NCBI GenBank assembly: GCA_965223665.1
Contig: OZ245011.1
Span: 320,001-384,000 of the forward strand
DNA length: 64,000 nt
Source: Nitrospinaceae bacterium
Lineage (GTDB): Bacteria > Nitrospinota > Nitrospinia > Nitrospinales > Nitrospinaceae
Direction of reading: 5' to 3'
Positions 22,263 to 52,806 of this stretch are shown piece after piece. Both the position numbers and the translations under genes were made by a program. The notes beneath the pieces were generated by a model. The model was not told where the DNA came from. It did no database searches and worked only from the letters and a program-made list of their open reading frames with translations. The number at the start of each line of letters is the position of its first letter. Position 1 is the first letter of the stretch.

Positions 22263-22341
22263 ATTGTTTGAGAAATATTGATAAAAAGCAGATTCCCAAT
22301 TGGGAGGAGCCTAGGTTTGTCGAACAATGAGGAGATTTTTA

Positions 22342-22512
22342 ATGAAAAAGTTGTTGATCTTAATAGCATTAGCAATGTTTGCCTTGAGCAATGTTGGGTG
22401 TGGAGATATTTCAGGAGAATGTGCTCACGGGGTTTGTAAAGAAAGTTACTACAAGGAAAAGGGTTCACCTGATAATCCTAAGCCTGCCGAAGGTGAAGCA
22501 GCCAAAGAATAA
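22342..22512 (+). CDS. Small putative lipoprotein (56 aa)
   Basis: GAGGAG RBS, MKKLLILIALAMFALSNVG-C signal, mature part contains CAHGVC. Confidence 0.7.
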   Translation: MKKLLILIALAMFALSNVGCGDISGECAHGVCKESYYKEKGSPDNPKPAEGEAAKE

Positions 22513-22611
22513 GTATTATTTTTCTCCTTGCCCATTCAGGTAACCTGGTAAAGGGGAAATACATCGGCCGTAAAATTTAATTTTAAAAATGACATTGGGT
22601 AGAGTTCATTG

Positions 22612-22646
22612 AAAAACCTGCACGGGGAAAGTGCGGGTTTTTTTTT
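22612..22646 (+). terminator. Intrinsic terminator, possibly bidirectional
   Basis: aaaaacctgcac-ggggaaa-gtgcgggttttttttt is a GC stem followed by a T-run, with an A-run on the other side. Confidence 0.75.
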
Positions 22647-22765
22647 GAAACTTAGTTGAAGGCGTTTGAATTTTCTAACAACCCAGGCGGCGGCAATGCT
22701 ACAATATGCCAATCTAGGATTTTCCAATTTTTTAAATACAATAAAATTTTTTATTGGAAGGAACT

Positions 22766-23098
22766 ATGTCTAGACCACCAACTACTGTTGAGCATGTAAG
22801 GCAATCCCAAGAACACTTTAAAAGTGGGATGGATTTGCACAAAGAACAAAAGTATAAAGAAGCTATTGAAGAATTTAAGAAAGGAGCTGAAATTAATCCT
22901 TTTGAAGAAAATCATATTAAAGAACTAACTCAAAGGCTTAAAGCAATGTCAGCTAAACTGGTTCAAGAGAGTACGGCATACATGGGATGTGCAGCGGTTC
23001 ATCTAAATGAATTAATTCGTGAGTTAAGTGAAGATGAATGTCAGCAAGTTCCAATTGATGAGTCTTTACAGAAAGCTTTTGACTCTTGGAATGAATAA
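22766..23098 (+). CDS. Small TPR-like hypothetical protein
   Basis: HFKSGMDLHKEQKYKEAIEEFKKGAEINP is a single TPR. GGAAGG RBS before ATG 22766. Extended -10 TGCTACAAT at 22697. Confidence 0.75.
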   Translation: MSRPPTTVEHVRQSQEHFKSGMDLHKEQKYKEAIEEFKKGAEINPFEENHIKELTQRLKAMSAKLVQESTAYMGCAAVHLNELIRELSEDECQQVPIDESLQKAFDSWNE

Positions 23099-23115
23099 AA
23101 AATGGATAGGCAAAA

Positions 23116-24318
23116 ATGGACCAAGAAGTTTTATATAATGTTTTCCGACAGGAAATAAGGGAAAGAAAAATTCCTTTGAGTTTGGGTAAAACCTGCCCAG
23201 TTAAGTGTGCTTTTTGTTATGAAAAGGACCACAGTTATAGGCCAACCATTGATCCACCCCGCACGACAGAAGAACATTGGAAATTTATGTTGAAAGAAAT
23301 TCAAAGCTATCCTACGAAACCGGGAGAAGCTTGGTTGTTGGGTGGAAACGAATACATGGAATGGACAGATATTTTTTTACATCCAAAAGCAATGGATTGG
23401 CTTGAAGAATTTTTAGACACTACAGATAAAATGATAGTGTTCTTTACTGTCGGTTATGTGCAGCCCGAAAGAATAAATTACTTAGTTGAAAAGTATCCGG
23501 GGCGGATAAACTTTGAATTATCTGTCATAACTATGGGTGAGCACAGGAAAAAATTGATGCCACATGCCCCTACTGTGGATCATTTATTTAAAATTCTAGA
23601 TGGTCCTGCAGTAACTTCCGCCAATTTTTATTCTTTTGGTCCAAATACGATGTCAGAAGATGCAAAAACCATTTCAAGAATTAATAAAAATTGTTTATTG
23701 TGGATGGGATGTTTAACTCCTTTAAAGTATATAGATTCGGATACCAGTAGTTTAATGCGGGAAGGAAGAAAGTTTTTGCCCGAAGAGGCCAAGAAAATTT
23801 ATTTTGAAGATTACCCAAATACAAAGATGATCCATACTGAGTCGTATATTTCCGTTTTTCTTGCCCGGCAAAAAATACTAAAAACTTTTGATGCATGTGA
23901 ATTAGAAAAAAAGGATACCGTAGTGGTTTCTGCCAGCCTTTACAAATTACTAACGTTGTTAAGAAAAAATAGAGCAAAGTATCTTTTTGTACCTAATCAC
24001 ACTTTAGGAGGCGATTCTGATTGTGCCACCTTATTAACATTCGATGATGTGACTCGTAGGTTGACACATGAATCTCAAGTGTATCTTCCTCAGGTAATCA
24101 TGGAACATCCTTCTAATGTTGAAAAGGATATCACTGGAACTACATTTGAGGAATTTAAAACTAGATTTCCACGGACAAGATTTCGGGTTTTGAAAAAGGT
24201 TAATTCTAAATTATCTAATAAAAAACTTTATGAAAAAGGCTATCTTAAAAATTACGTGGAAGATTATCTAGGGCACCCTCTAGCAAAAAAAATTGCAGAT
24301 GTTCCCCTCCCTAATTAA
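23116..24318 (+). CDS. Radical SAM protein with a DUF512-like C-terminal domain (no PDZ)
   Basis: C27-x3-C31-x2-C34 (CPVKCAFC). C-terminal VPN.TLGG..DCATLLT.DDV...VYLPQ resembles DUF512. Confidence 0.75.
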   Translation: MDQEVLYNVFRQEIRERKIPLSLGKTCPVKCAFCYEKDHSYRPTIDPPRTTEEHWKFMLKEIQSYPTKPGEAWLLGGNEYMEWTDIFLHPKAMDWLEEFLDTTDKMIVFFTVGYVQPERINYLVEKYPGRINFELSVITMGEHRKKLMPHAPTVDHLFKILDGPAVTSANFYSFGPNTMSEDAKTISRINKNCLLWMGCLTPLKYIDSDTSSLMREGRKFLPEEAKKIYFEDYPNTKMIHTESYISVFLARQKILKTFDACELEKKDTVVVSASLYKLLTLLRKNRAKYLFVPNHTLGGDSDCATLLTFDDVTRRLTHESQVYLPQVIMEHPSNVEKDITGTTFEEFKTRFPRTRFRVLKKVNSKLSNKKLYEKGYLKNYVEDYLGHPLAKKIADVPLPN

Positions 24319-24427
24319 AATAAGCGCAATTTAATTCCGTAAAATTTGTATATAAGTTACCAGATAAAATGAACTGGAGGTCTTGTCATGCTTCCCGATA
24401 AGCCTCGGTATCCAAAGGGGGAGGACA

Positions 24428-24616
24428 ATGAAATATTGGTTAAAAGTTGTATTTATCGATAATAGTGAGTTGAAATTAGATGATACTGAAAAACATTTTA
24501 TTAGTGATGATTTAGAGATTTTAGAAATTACAACTGAAAAGGAAGTATTTATTGTTCCAGTGCGTCAAATAAAATACATTTCTTGTGATTCTAAAATTTT
24601 CAAAGAGGGAACTTAG
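24428..24616 (+). CDS. Small hypothetical protein (62 aa, beta-rich)
   Basis: Strong GGGGAGG RBS before ATG 24428, MKYWLKVVFIDN...VFIVPVRQIKYI. Confidence 0.7.
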   Translation: MKYWLKVVFIDNSELKLDDTEKHFISDDLEILEITTEKEVFIVPVRQIKYISCDSKIFKEGT

Positions 24617-24656: not shown

Positions 24657-25073
24657 TTAGAACTTTATTCGCGCTTTTTTTAACCAAGAATCTTGGTCGA
24701 AATTAGACTGACAAAATTCTTGAAACAATTTTTCATGATCCGTTAAACTTTGACCATCAATTTTTTGTTCGGAATTTTCCATTGGAATATGGCCAAACTC
24801 TAAAACAGTCCTTGGTTTAGGTGGTTCTCCAGCAGGTTCCAATTTGTAAATCGGATCATTTGGAGTTTTGGGGTTAAGGTGTGAGTTTAATTCTTCCAAA
24901 CTTAATAACAGGTTCACCACAGAAGACTTTTTGATTAAATCTTCTTTATCCAGTTGTTTAAGAAGTAATTTAATCTCTCCTGAGGAAGTGATAGCATTCA
25001 TAATTGCCCCGCTAAGCTTCTCAAAAAATTCATCGGCTTTTGCGTTGTCAGGCTCCATAAAAGTACCCTCCAT
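24657..25073 (-). CDS. Hypothetical protein, probably sigma-54 dependent
   Basis: 138-aa ORF ending ...LTDHEKLFQEF...DSWLKKARIKF, with a -24/-12 site upstream. Confidence 0.7.
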   Translation of the reverse strand: MEGTFMEPDNAKADEFFEKLSGAIMNAITSSGEIKLLLKQLDKEDLIKKSSVVNLLLSLEELNSHLNPKTPNDPIYKLEPAGEPPKPRTVLEFGHIPMENSEQKIDGQSLTDHEKLFQEFCQSNFDQDSWLKKARIKF

Positions 25074-50175: not shown

Positions 50176-52806
50176 TTAATTGGCTTTTGAAATTTTTACT
50201 GATACTAATCCTTCTTCCCCGTTTCTTAACATGTTAATAGGAATATCGGGCCAGTTTTTAGGAATATAAACAATTCCTTTTGGAGATCTACCATTGACTT
50301 CTACCGGTAAATCTACAGATAAGGATTGTGATTCCACACGAATTTTATCGCCAGATTGAATTCCCAATTCTTTGGCATCAGCTGAATTAATTTCTGCAAT
50401 ACAATCAGGGCCAACATCCACGAGAGCTTTTGCATAGTGTGTGTAATTACCAATATGAAACATGTGATTATTAGCAATTAACTTCATTGGAAATCCATCC
50501 TTATCGGATTGGGAGTCGCCTTCAGTTACGATAGAAAACCCTGGTTTGTCACCAGATTTTGTAGGAGTCCATTGTTTATACCGGTTACCAGGGAACAGTC
50601 CCCGGTAGGAAGGGGTAACCTTTTCAATTTCTTCATGTAAATCAGAAAGAAACGTATAATCTAAGGTTTTCCCACATTTGTCAGCTAATTCTATGAAAAT
50701 ATCAAAATCTGGACGGGATTGACCTTGAGGTAAAACGGCAGGTGCCACTTTCTGAACATGCCGTGTCATATTTGTGAAAGTTCCTTCTTTTTCCGCATAA
50801 GTACTTGTGGGTAAAATTATGTCGGCTAATTTTGCTGTTTCTGTCATATAAACATCCTGAACCACCAGGAATGGGACCGTTCGCAAGGCCTCTTTTGCCA
50901 ATGACCCCTTATAGTAGGAGTGACAAGGATCCTCTCCGGCAATGTAGAGCATTTTTACCCAACCTTTGACACAGTTATTCCAAAGGTCCTCCACTAAGTT
51001 ATCTTGTTCAAGTTTTAATTCCTTGACTCCCCATGCTTCGCCCAAGTTTTTGAGTGCGTCAGTATCATTAAGGGATTGGTAACCTGGCAAATAAGCAGAT
51101 GTCATTCCCATATCATTAACGCCCTGAGAATTACAATGTTCTCTTGGAGGATAGGCGCTAACGCTACCTTCACCACCAATATGAACCAATACACACAAAT
51201 TCAAAATGGCAGCTAATATGTTTTTGCCCTGGCCGGTATCTAATATATCGTTTCCTAAAAGAATGAACCGATCTGCTTTTTTAGCGAATTTTTCAGCAGC
51301 TTCTGTTAACAAAGTGTCGCTAATTCCAGTCGCTTTTTCTGCATAATCGGCAGTGTACTTTGTTAGCGAATTGGATAATTCATTAAAATTAGAAATAGCC
51401 GATTTTACTTTTTCTAAATCTACAAGGTTTTTTTCAATAATAATCTGGCATATTCGGTTTGCAATTACTAGATCTGATCCAGGTGAATAAGTGAGGCGCG
51501 TTTCTGATCTGGACTCATGTTTAAATTCAACTTTTCTCGGATTTGCAATTAGAATATCTGTATTGAGTCTTATTGCCGCTTTACGAATTGCATTTCCTGC
51601 TACTGGGTATTCTGAAGGAATGTCGGTATTAAACAAAAGGACTACATCCGCTTTTTCCAATTCAGGAATAGGTTTGCTGATTATTCCATTATCAAAACAA
51701 CCAACCATGAATTCATTAAGATAAGGGGCTCTTAAATTTGCCAGATTAGTTACCTGATTGGAGCCTAAGATTCCGCGATAAAGTTTTTGTAATAGATAGT
51801 TTTCTTCATTGGTTAGTTTTTCTCCTCCAATTGCTGCAATAGTATGCGGTCCACTTCGATTGACTGTTGTTTTGAATCGGTCCGCGATGGTATCTAAGGC
51901 TTCTTCCCAAGAAATTTCTTTAAAGGTTCCACCCACGTTCATTAATGGGGTTTGAATCCTCTTTTCATTTTGAACCATTCCATGGCCGAACCGACCTTTA
52001 GCACAGAGATTACCTTCGTTGATTCCAACATCAAAATTCTCATCGGCTTCAATTCGGATTAAATTTCCTTTTTTTGTTTGAAGGCGGATTGTACAACCCC
52101 AGGAACAAAAGTTACAGGTAGAATGCGTATTATCAAACATTGCAGCCAATCCTCTTGCCTCTGAGGATAGGTCCATTAAAGCACCGGTTGGGCAAACGGT
52201 AATACACTGGCCACAAAATTCACAATCAAGCGGCTCATCATTTGCAGTTCCAATTGTTACTTTATACCCGCGCTTATGGAAGTCCAGCGCCTGGACTCCT
52301 TGAACTTCGTCACAAACCCGAACGCACATCCCGCACATAATGCATCGGTTTAAATAAAATTCGATAATGGGATTTGTTTTAATACTTGGTTCGTTTCGAC
52401 GTTTGATTTCAAACCGGCCATTATAAAGCTTTAGCCAATCTGTATTGTCTTGAAGAGGACAAACTCCGGATTTGTCGCAAATGGGGCAATCTAAAGGATG
52501 TTCAACCAAAAGCATTTCAAGACAAGCCTGATTATACCGGTTGGTTTCCTCCGTATCACTTTTGATTTCCATTCCCTCTGAGACGGGATGAGTGCAGGAA
52601 TAGACCAAATCTTTTTTGCCATCCACCTGCACTTCCACCATACAGGTTCTGCAGGCAGCAAATGGTTTCAATTGTCGGTTAGAGCAAAGGTTTGTGATGT
52701 AAATTCCTTCACGTTTAGCCGCATCTAAAATTACTGTTCCCTCAGGGGCGGAATATGGTTTCCCATTGATTGAGAAATTGACGACCTTTTGTTCTTTAAC
52801 GCTCAT
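50176..52806 (-). CDS. nuoG: NuoG-like / formate dehydrogenase-alpha-fold Fe-S protein without the catalytic Cys/Sec
   Basis: 2Fe-2S (C..AACRTC..C), HPLDCPICD..C, CIMCGMCVRVC, CEFCGQCITVCP, CNFCSWGC..C, molybdopterin-fold domains. Confidence 0.8.
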   Translation of the reverse strand: MSVKEQKVVNFSINGKPYSAPEGTVILDAAKREGIYITNLCSNRQLKPFAACRTCMVEVQVDGKKDLVYSCTHPVSEGMEIKSDTEETNRYNQACLEMLLVEHPLDCPICDKSGVCPLQDNTDWLKLYNGRFEIKRRNEPSIKTNPIIEFYLNRCIMCGMCVRVCDEVQGVQALDFHKRGYKVTIGTANDEPLDCEFCGQCITVCPTGALMDLSSEARGLAAMFDNTHSTCNFCSWGCTIRLQTKKGNLIRIEADENFDVGINEGNLCAKGRFGHGMVQNEKRIQTPLMNVGGTFKEISWEEALDTIADRFKTTVNRSGPHTIAAIGGEKLTNEENYLLQKLYRGILGSNQVTNLANLRAPYLNEFMVGCFDNGIISKPIPELEKADVVLLFNTDIPSEYPVAGNAIRKAAIRLNTDILIANPRKVEFKHESRSETRLTYSPGSDLVIANRICQIIIEKNLVDLEKVKSAISNFNELSNSLTKYTADYAEKATGISDTLLTEAAEKFAKKADRFILLGNDILDTGQGKNILAAILNLCVLVHIGGEGSVSAYPPREHCNSQGVNDMGMTSAYLPGYQSLNDTDALKNLGEAWGVKELKLEQDNLVEDLWNNCVKGWVKMLYIAGEDPCHSYYKGSLAKEALRTVPFLVVQDVYMTETAKLADIILPTSTYAEKEGTFTNMTRHVQKVAPAVLPQGQSRPDFDIFIELADKCGKTLDYTFLSDLHEEIEKVTPSYRGLFPGNRYKQWTPTKSGDKPGFSIVTEGDSQSDKDGFPMKLIANNHMFHIGNYTHYAKALVDVGPDCIAEINSADAKELGIQSGDKIRVESQSLSVDLPVEVNGRSPKGIVYIPKNWPDIPINMLRNGEEGLVSVKISKAN

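What the first reader, a model, noticed from the sequence alone, without database searches (positions are those of the whole stretch)
22697..24616. Candidate cobalamin-dependent radical SAM (DUF512/Mmp10-like) modification system with small partner proteins
Seen: after a strong terminator (22612-22646) and an extended -10 box come three co-oriented genes: a 110-aa single-TPR protein, a 400-aa protein with CxxxCxxC at residues 27-34, and a 62-aa protein. The enzyme's C-terminus (VPNHTLGGDSDCATLLTFDDV...VYLPQ) resembles DUF512, and it lacks the N-terminal PDZ domain of the common bacterial DUF512 proteins. Known: DUF512 is the cobalamin-binding domain of the radical SAM protein methyltransferase Mmp10, which methylates an arginine of methyl-CoM reductase. 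Inference: this is a B12-dependent radical SAM methylase in a non-methanogen with an unknown, possibly protein, substrate. The TPR protein (AYMGCAAVHL stretch) could be an adaptor or the substrate.
Basis: partly seen in the sequence, partly recalled or inferred. Interest (0 to 1): 0.75.

Follow-up and report, generated by a model that had tools for sequence, protein, structure and literature searches.

The report
B12-type radical SAM enzyme with tiny partner
This gene encodes a radical SAM enzyme built like the vitamin-B12-dependent protein methylase Mmp10, and it always occurs together with a 62-residue barrel protein, which is therefore a concrete candidate partner or substrate for an enzyme class whose reactions are mostly unknown.

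Summary
Pfam does not call DUF512 in the 400-aa protein. A family profile matches DUF512-bearing relatives (hhalign E 1.4e-13). An AlphaFold model superposes over both domains on pfDUF512 (Z 18.5) and Mmp10 (Z 18.2), about 5 Z units above any other radical SAM enzyme. The Tyr after the third Cys and the GG...LLT motif, which holds the lower-axial Leu, are conserved. Cobalamin binding is therefore likely but not shown.

The real partner is the 62-aa acidic beta-barrel, not the TPR protein. In 301 Nitrospirota genomes the enzyme and the small protein occur in exactly the same 50. They are usually 26 kb to 2.4 Mb apart there. They are adjacent in Nitrospinales and in a few other MAGs. The TPR-like protein is found only in Nitrospinales.

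The family sits mainly in two nitrite-oxidiser lineages but does not track NXR strictly. The substrate is unknown. My best guess is radical methylation of the small protein, or of something it carries. Verdict: a new variant of the DUF512/Mmp10 class, with moderate to high interest.

The parts
22617..22646 (+). Intrinsic-terminator-like hairpin ending the upstream unit. GC core 22617-22623/22631-22637, 7-nt loop, U9 tract. An A-tract at 22612-16 can pair with the U-tract.
   Evidence: the 22600-22655 stretch folds at -23.9 kcal/mol, z -6.4; sequence; not listed by the consensus scan
22697..22705 (+). TGCTACAAT, an extended -10-like box about 60 nt upstream of the first gene. Function not tested.
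   Evidence: read from the sequence; no -35 box, so absent from the scan
22766..23098 (+). 110-aa acidic protein with one sub-threshold TPR-like motif and an invariant QES-AYMGCAAVHL stretch. Always directly upstream of the enzyme in Nitrospinales, but not found elsewhere. A lineage-specific neighbour and possible accessory.
   Evidence: 39 of 39 places adjacent, gap 9-430 nt; no orthologue
23116..24318 (+). 400-aa radical SAM enzyme of the DUF512/Mmp10 structural class, without PDZ.
23194..23220 (+). Codons for C27-x3-C31-x2-C34-Y35: the [4Fe-4S] ligands plus the aromatic residue that lies between cluster and corrin in Mmp10, pfDUF512 and csDUF512.
   Evidence: invariant; role of the Tyr/Phe taken from PMC11659888
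23908..24150 (+). Residues about 265-345: Rossmann-like C-terminal domain that aligns with the cobalamin-binding DUF512 domain.
24007..24039 (+). Codons for G298-G299-D-S-D-C303-A-T-L306-L307-T308. The motif aligns with the GGNIGTAGLLT string of pfDUF512; by my count with an assumed +1 chain/native offset its first Leu is the lower-axial L286.
   Evidence: alignment to 9cg2; paper; conservation
24428..24616 (+). 62-aa acidic (pI 4.8) five-stranded small beta-barrel preceded by a GGGGGAGG ribosome-binding site. Invariant H23, D27, Q47-I-K-Y50 and C53-D54. The obligate partner of the enzyme.

Best explanation
The 400-aa gene encodes a PDZ-less enzyme of the DUF512/Mmp10 class of radical SAM enzymes. 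Its N-terminal partial TIM barrel carries the C27/C31/C34 [4Fe-4S] site and a GGNE (76-79) SAM-binding motif. Its C-terminal Rossmann-like domain most likely binds cobalamin base-off above L306, with Y35 between cluster and corrin.

By analogy with Mmp10 and the DUF512 proteins characterised in vitro, one SAM would methylate cob(I)alamin. A second SAM would be cleaved to a 5'-deoxyadenosyl radical that abstracts a hydrogen atom from the substrate, and the substrate radical would then take the methyl group from methylcobalamin.

The enzyme works as a two-gene module with the 62-aa acidic beta-barrel protein encoded 109 nt downstream. I think this protein is most likely the substrate, or the carrier that presents the substrate. 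The site would be one of its invariant residues (H23, K49, C53, D54) near the C-terminal end of the barrel.

The 110-aa TPR-like protein is a Nitrospinales-specific add-on.

Shown: the fold class, the motif conservation and the phyletic coupling of the two genes. Inferred: cobalamin binding, methyl transfer and the role of the small protein.
For: Fold. The AF2 model has pLDDT 86.7 and pTM 0.83. The top nine Foldseek PDB hits are all DUF512-class: pfDUF512 9cg2 E 6.6e-10, Mmp10 7qbt 1e-8, csDUF512 9cg1 1.6e-8. The next hit, SkfB at 3e-5, covers the radical SAM core only. VIA-align gives Z 18.5 for 9cg2 (300 residues, model 13-364) and Z 18.2 for Mmp10 (322 residues, model 15-378). The best other enzyme scores 13.3 over about 200 residues.

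Sequence. The family-only profile A3 against P0177, which carries PF04459 above cut-off, gives hhalign probability 98%, E 1.4e-13 over 329 columns. Against P0180 it gives 96%, E 1.8e-9. 10 of 19 family members give sub-threshold DUF512 hits. Profile A1 hits 9cg2 at E 1.6e-10, and the best stretch is the GG...LLT motif.

Residues. Y35, G298, G299, L306, L307 and T308 are invariant or nearly so. They match pfDUF512 Y47 and L286 as described in PMC11659888.

Cofactor supply. The genome has CobS and 12 B12-binding-domain proteins over cut-off.

Partner. In 301 Nitrospirota genomes the enzyme is found in 50 and the small protein in 50, and the two sets are identical. Of 34 same-contig pairs, 32 lie 26 kb to 2.4 Mb apart.

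In 41 Nitrospinota relatives both genes are in the same 38 genomes, adjacent and co-oriented at 39 of 39 places. The pair stays adjacent in different contexts in family f5. It also stays adjacent in three Nitrospirota MAG loci and in two MAGs of another phylum.

In those last two MAGs the pair lies just downstream of corrin-biosynthesis genes: CbiD at E 8e-92 and a tetrapyrrole methylase.
Against: Pfam's DUF512 model does not hit the window protein at E <= 1.

The family-only profile finds no solved structure by sequence. The PDB hit comes from a profile that includes two DUF512-bearing sequences.

The Thr that hydrogen-bonds the dimethylbenzimidazole base in pfDUF512 (T252) aligns to V/M271. 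The next residue is Ser in this protein but Ala in most family members.

No cobalamin riboswitch or any other Rfam family lies in the window.

Nothing here shows contact between the two proteins.

The co-occurring genomes are related to one another, so 50 of 50 represents far fewer independent events.

A folded, highly conserved 62-aa protein is unlike typical radical SAM peptide substrates. It could equally be a subunit or chaperone.
Confidence: 0.6

Rival explanations
1. Same enzyme class and same two-gene module, but the 62-aa barrel is an obligatory accessory subunit. It could be an adaptor, a chaperone or a cofactor-handling protein. The methyl acceptor would then be something else: another protein, an RNA or a metabolite.
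For: The small protein is acidic (pI 4.8, charge -4.4). The last 56 residues of the enzyme are strongly basic (pI 10.0, charge +7.9), which suits a docking pair. Its fold is a generic Sm/SH3-like small barrel (best Z 6.2; Hfq about 6.0). The list also includes the nickel chaperone CooT at Z 4.3. Its cross-phylum conservation (55-63%) matches that of the enzyme (55-57%), as expected for co-evolving subunits.
Against: No other candidate substrate gene travels with the pair in the contexts examined. The acidic charge argues against RNA binding despite the Sm-like fold.
Confidence: 0.3
2. The C-terminal domain keeps the DUF512 fold but no longer uses cobalamin. The enzyme would then do cobalamin-independent radical chemistry, for example a cross-link, an epimerisation or a Cys-mediated methyl transfer. 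The family-specific invariant cysteines C199 and C303 could take part.
For: The base-binding Thr is not conserved. Pfam's DUF512 model fails. C199 and C303 are invariant in the family, including the Nitrospirota members, but not in distant relatives. The family sits on a very long branch from other DUF512-like proteins.
Against: The lower-axial Leu, the GG motif and the Tyr after the third Cys are all kept. All four DUF512 proteins tested in PMC11659888 bound cobalamin. In one lineage the pair lies next to corrin-biosynthesis genes.
Confidence: 0.15
3. One reading: the TPR-like protein is the adaptor or substrate of the enzyme and belongs to the core system.
For: It lies directly upstream and co-oriented at 39 of 39 places in 38 Nitrospinota genomes. 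It has an invariant AYMGCAAVHL stretch.
Against: No orthologue was found in family f5: 4 genomes gave only generic TPR hits at E 0.002-0.009. None was found in 5 other genomes that carry the pair; 1 of 5 gave a generic hit at E 0.002. None lies beside the pair in loci L017, L021-L024 or L037. The whole region is syntenic in Nitrospinales, so adjacency there says little.
Confidence: 0.1
4. The neighbours are unrelated to the enzyme, and the apparent system is only inherited gene order.
For: Synteny from BirA to PBP1a is broadly kept across the order.
Against: The presence sets of enzyme and small protein are identical in 301 Nitrospirota genomes even though the genes are unlinked there. The pair is adjacent again in unrelated contexts.
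Confidence: 0.03

Closest known systems
pfDUF512 (Pyrococcus furiosus, PDB 9CG2), a PDZ-less DUF512 radical SAM protein shown to bind cobalamin; its substrate is unknown
   Same: Two-domain layout without PDZ. Best structural match: Z 18.5, 300 residues, 18% identity. It shares the Cx3Cx2C-Tyr motif and the GG...LLT motif with the lower-axial Leu.
   Different: There is no significant direct sequence match from the family-only profile. The base-binding Thr is not conserved. This family has about 55 extra, basic C-terminal residues and two extra invariant Cys. It also has an obligate 62-aa partner. No such partner came up in the parts of PMC11659888 that I read (sections 14 parts 1-2 and found passages).
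Mmp10 (methanogenesis marker protein 10, PDB 7QBS/7QBT), the cobalamin-dependent radical SAM arginine C-methyltransferase of methyl-coenzyme M reductase
   Same: Same overall fold over both domains: Z 18.2, 322 residues aligned. It is the only member of the class with a known substrate, which is a protein side chain. It is the model for the mechanism proposed here.
   Different: Only 12% identity. There was no HMMER or NCBIfam hit. The host is a Nitrospinota bacterium and not a methanogen. The Tyr115 iron ligand of Mmp10 could not be mapped here.
csDUF512 and the common bacterial PDZ-radical SAM-DUF512 proteins (PDB 9CG1; Pfam PF19238 + PF04459)
   Same: Same C-terminal cobalamin-domain fold: Z 13.7; profile hit at E 8.9e-5.
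   Different: Those proteins have an N-terminal PDZ domain and a shortened beta3-alpha4 barrel with a DDD motif. This protein has no PDZ and a fuller barrel.
Small Sm/SH3-like beta-barrels (Hfq, DUF903/YgdR lipoproteins, CooT)
   Same: Five-stranded small barrel of the same size: Z 6.2-4.3, Foldseek E 0.02-0.05.
   Different: No significant match (all Z below 8). No sequence family was found: no Pfam or NCBIfam hit and only unnamed clusters in the ESM Atlas. It is acidic, so it is unlikely to bind RNA like Hfq.

Membership tests
Radical SAM superfamily (PF04055) | Cx3Cx2C motif that ligates the [4Fe-4S] cluster | tested here: met
   C27, C31 and C34 are invariant in 31 of 31 aligned sequences, including distant relatives.
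Radical SAM superfamily (PF04055) | Pfam model match above the gathering score | tested here: not met
   The window protein scores 17.9 bits against a cut-off of 29.5, E 0.0036. All 19 of 19 family members match at E <= 1, best 3.1e-8. The partial TIM-barrel fold matches many radical SAM structures at Z 11-13.
DUF512 cobalamin-binding domain class (PF04459; Mmp10, pfDUF512, csDUF512) | Pfam PF04459 match above the gathering score | tested here: not met
   No hit at E <= 1 for the window protein. 10 of 19 family members give sub-threshold hits, best E 0.027. The distant relatives P0177 and P0180 pass the cut-off.
DUF512 cobalamin-binding domain class (PF04459; Mmp10, pfDUF512, csDUF512) | C-terminal Rossmann-like alpha/beta/alpha domain following the radical SAM barrel, superposable on solved members | tested here: met
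   Z 18.5 (9cg2), 18.2 (7qbt) and 13.7 (9cg1), with alignments running to model residues 364-378. The next unrelated enzyme scores Z 13.3. Foldseek gives E 6.6e-10 to 1.6e-8.
DUF512 cobalamin-binding domain class (PF04459; Mmp10, pfDUF512, csDUF512) | [quoted passage not shown] | tested here: met
   L306 aligns with the first Leu of GLLT in 9cg2. That Leu is L286 by my count, which assumes a +1 offset between chain and native numbering. L306 is at least 90% conserved and L307 is invariant. Residue roles are from PMC11659888.
DUF512 cobalamin-binding domain class (PF04459; Mmp10, pfDUF512, csDUF512) | Hydrophobic/aromatic residue directly after the third Cys, between cluster and corrin (Y23, Y47, F95) | tested here: met
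   Y35 follows C34 and is invariant in the family.
DUF512 cobalamin-binding domain class (PF04459; Mmp10, pfDUF512, csDUF512) | Thr/Ser hydrogen-bonding N3 of the dimethylbenzimidazole tail (T252 pfDUF512) | tested here: inconclusive
   By the HMM alignment, T252 falls on V/M271. The neighbouring residue 272 is Ser here and Ala in most members. No residue-level structural alignment was available.
DUF512 cobalamin-binding domain class (PF04459; Mmp10, pfDUF512, csDUF512) | Binds cobalamin and forms methylcobalamin from SAM | not testable with these tools
   This needs purified protein. The genome does encode CobS and 12 B12-binding-domain proteins, but no CbiD.
Mmp10 proper (MCR arginine methyltransferase) | Sequence orthology to Mmp10 | tested here: not met
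   12% identity in the structural alignment. Mmp10 chains are absent from the HMMER searches of PDB sequences. There is no NCBIfam hit except a chance HxsC4 match at E 0.052.
Mmp10 proper (MCR arginine methyltransferase) | Methyl-coenzyme M reductase substrate present in the genome | not tested
   No search for McrA was run. The named homologues are all from Nitrospinota or Nitrospirota.
PDZ-containing bacterial DUF512 proteins | N-terminal PDZ domain | tested here: not met
   No PDZ family at E <= 1. The cluster motif starts at residue 27.
TPR proteins (110-aa gene) | TPR repeat model above the gathering score | tested here: not met
   TPR_2 scores 20.8 bits against 27, and TPR_1 16.7 against 27.8; one motif, residues 16-45.
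Sm/Hfq-like proteins (62-aa gene) | Significant fold or sequence match to Sm/Hfq | tested here: inconclusive
   Best Z 6.2-6.0 and Foldseek E 0.02-0.05. None reaches the level that stands out from chance.

The most novel reading that the evidence does not exclude
The enzyme and the 62-aa barrel form a self-contained protein-modification system. The cobalamin-dependent radical SAM enzyme would install a methyl (or other) group on an invariant residue of a dedicated small carrier protein. That would create a modified protein or protein-derived cofactor found almost only in the Nitrospina and Nitrospira nitrite-oxidiser lineages, and shared between those two phyla by gene transfer. It would be the first DUF512-class enzyme outside methanogens with an identified protein substrate.
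Probability: 0.2. Interest if true: 0.8.

Novelty: new variant of a known kind. Interest (0 to 1): 0.6.

Why it matters
DUF512 was recognised as a cobalamin-binding radical SAM domain only in 2022-2024. Apart from Mmp10, no member has a known substrate (PMC11659888, sections read).

This family lies outside what Pfam's DUF512 model detects, so it extends the class.

It comes with a partner protein whose presence matches the enzyme's genome for genome. That turns 'unknown substrate' into a simple experiment: co-express the two genes and weigh the small protein.

The family is a single-copy, highly conserved core gene of marine Nitrospinales. It also occurs in a large subset of Nitrospira-like genomes. 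These are the main nitrite oxidisers of oceans and of many soils and wastewater plants, so an unknown B12-dependent function there bears on their vitamin dependence.

Tried and rejected
It was then declared unavailable, so nothing was folded and there is no verdict.

2. A link to nitrite oxidoreductase. NxrA of this genome (L025) was searched in the same samples.
- Nitrospirota: NxrA at 47% identity or more is in 63 of 301 genomes. Of these, 41 have the pair and 22 do not. Nine genomes have the pair but no NxrA.
- Nitrospinota: genus g9 (4 genomes, 91-96% complete) has the enzyme but no NxrA match. Family f6 has a distant NxrA-like gene (42-43% identity) but no enzyme.
- The four MAG genomes of L021-L024 have no close NxrA.
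- So the distribution centres on nitrite-oxidiser lineages but is not tied to NXR.

3. Context of distant relatives.
- The metagenome scan with P0173 found nothing.
- The word-indexed search with alignment A2 returned only 3 proteins.

4. Fused forms of the small protein. Four longer proteins were found. One is joined to pyrroline-5-carboxylate reductase; proC lies next to the small gene in Nitrospira-like genomes, so this is probably a gene-calling artefact. The others are 123-134 aa. None is informative.

5. Expression. No RNA holder was listed, and no reads were laid.

6. Rfam. No family reached the gathering score in the whole window, so no cobalamin riboswitch was found.

7. Literature. 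Searches for 'DUF512' (26 papers), 'Nitrospina + radical SAM + cobalamin' (1 paper) and 'Nitrospina + Nitrospira + radical SAM' (2 papers) were judged from the listings only. None described this family.

8. The gene set around the trio gives no functional hint. It comprises a DnaJ-like protein, Slp, BirA, DUF2062, HemB, an HTH protein, PBP1a, SPOR, PGI, transaldolase and glucokinase.
Full report
**1. The observation**

ORF listing and sequence confirm three co-oriented genes on the + strand.
- A 110-aa protein lies at 22766-23098.
- A 400-aa protein lies at 23116-24318.
- A 62-aa protein lies at 24428-24616 and is preceded by a GGGGGAGG ribosome-binding site.

The upstream hairpin is real. The 22600-22655 stretch folds at -23.9 kcal/mol, z = -6.4, with 0 of 200 shuffles as good. 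The hairpin has a GC core at 22617-22637 followed by U9. The consensus terminator scan missed it.

TGCTACAAT lies at 22697-22705. I did not test whether it acts as a promoter.

The 'single TPR' is a sub-threshold Pfam call: TPR_2 at 20.8 bits against a cut-off of 27.

**2. What the enzyme is**

*Direct family scans are almost blind to it.*
- Pfam gives only Radical_SAM at E 0.0036, and no DUF512 or PDZ at E <= 1.
- NCBIfam gives nothing meaningful.
- HMMER against all PDB sequences gives nothing, either with the single protein or with a family-only profile.

*The family is sharply bounded.*
- The 5.8-billion-protein index returned 775 proteins at E <= 0.001. The 120 best all share at least 66% identity, and every one that carries a name is from Nitrospinota.
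- Among 1.84 billion cluster representatives there are only 60 hits. One is a full-length representative at 56% identity (P0121). The rest are fragments or distant relatives at E 1e-9 to 4e-4.

*Bridging evidence for DUF512.*
- Two of the distant relatives, P0177 and P0180, carry PF04459 (DUF512) above its cut-off.
- The family-only profile A3 aligns to P0177 over nearly its whole length: hhalign probability 98%, E 1.4e-13.
- A3 aligns to P0180 with probability 96%, E 1.8e-9.
- 10 of 19 family members give sub-threshold DUF512 hits, best E 0.027.

*Structure.*
- An AlphaFold2 model was built from a 31-sequence alignment that includes those distant relatives. It has pLDDT 86.7 and pTM 0.83.
- The nine best Foldseek hits in the PDB are all DUF512-class. 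They are pfDUF512 9cg2 (E 6.6e-10), Mmp10 7qbt (1e-8) and csDUF512 9cg1 (1.6e-8).
- The next hit, SkfB at 3e-5, covers only the radical SAM core.
- VIA-align gives Z 18.5 for 9cg2 (300 residues, model 13-364). It gives Z 18.2 for Mmp10 (322 residues, model 15-378) and Z 13.7 for csDUF512.
- The best unrelated radical SAM enzyme scores 13.3 over about 200 residues.

The protein therefore has the two-domain DUF512/Mmp10 fold, of the PDZ-less kind.

**3. Is the cobalamin site kept?**

PMC11659888 (sections read) names three recurring features of the site:
- a Leu below the corrin (L286 in pfDUF512, L322 in Mmp10);
- an aromatic residue right after the third Cys (Y47, Y23, F95);
- a Thr that hydrogen-bonds the dimethylbenzimidazole base (T252 in pfDUF512).

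In the profile-to-9cg2 alignment, G298-G299-x6-L306-L307-T308 aligns with the GGNIGTAGLLT string of pfDUF512. This puts L306 on the axial Leu. My count assumes a +1 offset between chain and native numbering. The profile used there includes two DUF512-bearing sequences.

Y35 follows C34. Y35, G298, G299, L307 and T308 are invariant in the family, and L306 is at least 90% conserved. This holds when the Nitrospirota members are included.

The Thr position is not kept. It falls on V/M271, and the next residue is Ser here but Ala in most members. So two of the three features are met and one is inconclusive.

The genome can supply the cofactor. CobS is present, and 12 proteins carry a B12-binding domain over cut-off. 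CbiD was not found. Cobalamin binding is likely but remains an inference.

**4. Which neighbours belong to the enzyme?**

*Inside Nitrospinota.* In 41 relatives, all three genes are found in the same 38 genomes. This includes 28 of 28 high-quality genomes. The three genomes without them are 65-72% complete. At all 39 places the genes share contig and strand. The gaps are 9-430 nt and 23-512 nt.

This is weak evidence on its own, because the whole stretch from BirA to HemB and PBP1a is syntenic across the order.

*Beyond the order.*
- In family f5 the flanks differ and the TPR gene is gone. The enzyme and the 62-aa gene stay adjacent.
- Three Nitrospirota MAG loci and one MAG of another phylum carry the enzyme (55-56% identity). 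The small protein (57-63% identity) follows about 20 nt later, in unrelated contexts and without the TPR gene.
- A second genome of that other phylum shows the same arrangement.

*Co-occurrence without linkage.*
- In a sample of 301 Nitrospirota genomes the enzyme is present in 50.
- The small protein is present in 50.
- The two sets are identical.
- Of 34 pairs on one contig, only 2 are adjacent. The other 32 lie 26 kb to 2.4 Mb apart.

Perfect co-occurrence without linkage is strong evidence that the two proteins need each other. These genomes are related to one another, so the number of independent events is much smaller than 50.

The TPR-like protein has no orthologue in 4 f5 genomes or in 5 other pair-carrying genomes. 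It is a Nitrospinales-specific neighbour.

**5. The small protein**

- It has no Pfam or NCBIfam family.
- The ESM Atlas finds only unnamed clusters from Nitrospinota and Nitrospirota.
- Its AlphaFold model (pLDDT 88) is a five-stranded small barrel.
- The best matches are DUF903 lipoproteins and Hfq. They score Foldseek E 0.02-0.05 and Z 6.2-6.0, which is not significant.
- It is acidic (pI 4.8), whereas the last 56 residues of the enzyme are strongly basic (pI 10.0).
- Invariant residues are Y3, K6, F9, D11, N12, E14, H23, D27, L29, E33, P44, Q47-I-K-Y50 and C53-D54.
- No informative fused form exists.

**6. Distribution**

- In Nitrospinota the enzyme is in 98 of 120 genomes.
- It is in 97 of 105 genomes of families f1-f5 and in 0 of 14 genomes of f6-f9.
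- A tree places the Nitrospirota and other-phylum sequences as one well-supported clade (100/100) beside an unresolved Nitrospinota group. The whole family sits on a long branch from distant relatives.
- The family centres on two nitrite-oxidiser lineages but does not track NXR. In Nitrospirota, 41 genomes have both, 22 have NxrA only and 9 have the pair only.
- Nitrospinota genus g9 has the enzyme but no NxrA match.

**7. Mechanism proposed**

By analogy with Mmp10 and the DUF512 proteins characterised in vitro:
- one SAM methylates cob(I)alamin;
- a second SAM, bound to the cluster, yields a 5'-deoxyadenosyl radical that abstracts a hydrogen atom from the substrate;
- the substrate radical takes the methyl group from methylcobalamin.

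I think the small barrel is most likely the substrate or the substrate carrier. The main rival is that it is an obligatory subunit.

In one lineage the pair lies directly downstream of corrin-biosynthesis genes: CbiD at E 8e-92 and a tetrapyrrole methylase. This fits a cobalamin link, but it is a single evolutionary observation.

**8. Novelty**

The class is known and this family is not. Pfam's model misses it. Judged from the listings, none of the papers found describes it. PMC11659888 does not mention Nitrospir*.

Two earlier unchecked notes of this scan report other DUF512-class enzymes with small partner genes. I did not test whether those partners are related to this one.

I rate it a new variant of a known kind, with interest 0.6.

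Noticed in passing
G000 contig C1 3002631-3006089 (locus L025 1632-5090), outside the window: NxrA of this genome is 89-99% identical to nearly all full-length matches across the families of the order (exceptions: 62% in G041, 56% in G080). The radical SAM enzyme is only 65-79% identical in those genomes. The nitrite oxidoreductase is far more uniform than a core gene. This suggests either extreme constraint or recent spread within Nitrospinales.
   Followed up: no
window 24657-25073 (-): A 138-aa protein with no Pfam or NCBIfam family lies tail-to-tail with the 62-aa gene. It matched at 34-40% identity in 6 of 8 Nitrospinota loci examined, not in L014 or L017. It was not found beside the pair in Nitrospirota loci.
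   Followed up: partly
window 22327-22512 (+): A 61-aa ORF has a lipoprotein-like signal (…LSNVGCGD…) and two further Cys. It lies between DUF2062 and the terminator. It is conserved in family f1 loci and has no Pfam family.
   Followed up: no
loci L027-L031 (Nitrospira-like genomes): In these loci the enzyme is flanked in conserved order by three genes. They are a 310-aa PhzF-like protein, a short protein with a J-domain-like motif and a second radical SAM gene (…ATRGCYWGRCTFCDHG…). The 62-aa gene sits elsewhere, next to a proC-like gene. Names are from reading the sequences; I did not run family scans on them.
   Followed up: no
loci L024 2563-5907 and L037 3764-4216: In the two MAGs of a third phylum the pair lies directly downstream of corrin-ring biosynthesis genes: CbiD, a CbiT-like methyltransferase and a tetrapyrrole methylase. 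In L037 a small toxin-antitoxin-like insert lies in between. The toxin-antitoxin label comes from reading the sequence.
   Followed up: partly
window 50680-51960 (-): A molybdopterin oxidoreductase (PF00384, E 2.9e-59, open frame 878 aa) lies in the window. It is one of five such genes in the genome.
   Followed up: no
window 23116-24318, residues C199 and C303: Two extra cysteines are invariant in the whole family, including the Nitrospirota members, but are absent from distant DUF512-like relatives. C303 sits three residues before the presumed lower-axial Leu. Their role is unexplained.
   Followed up: no
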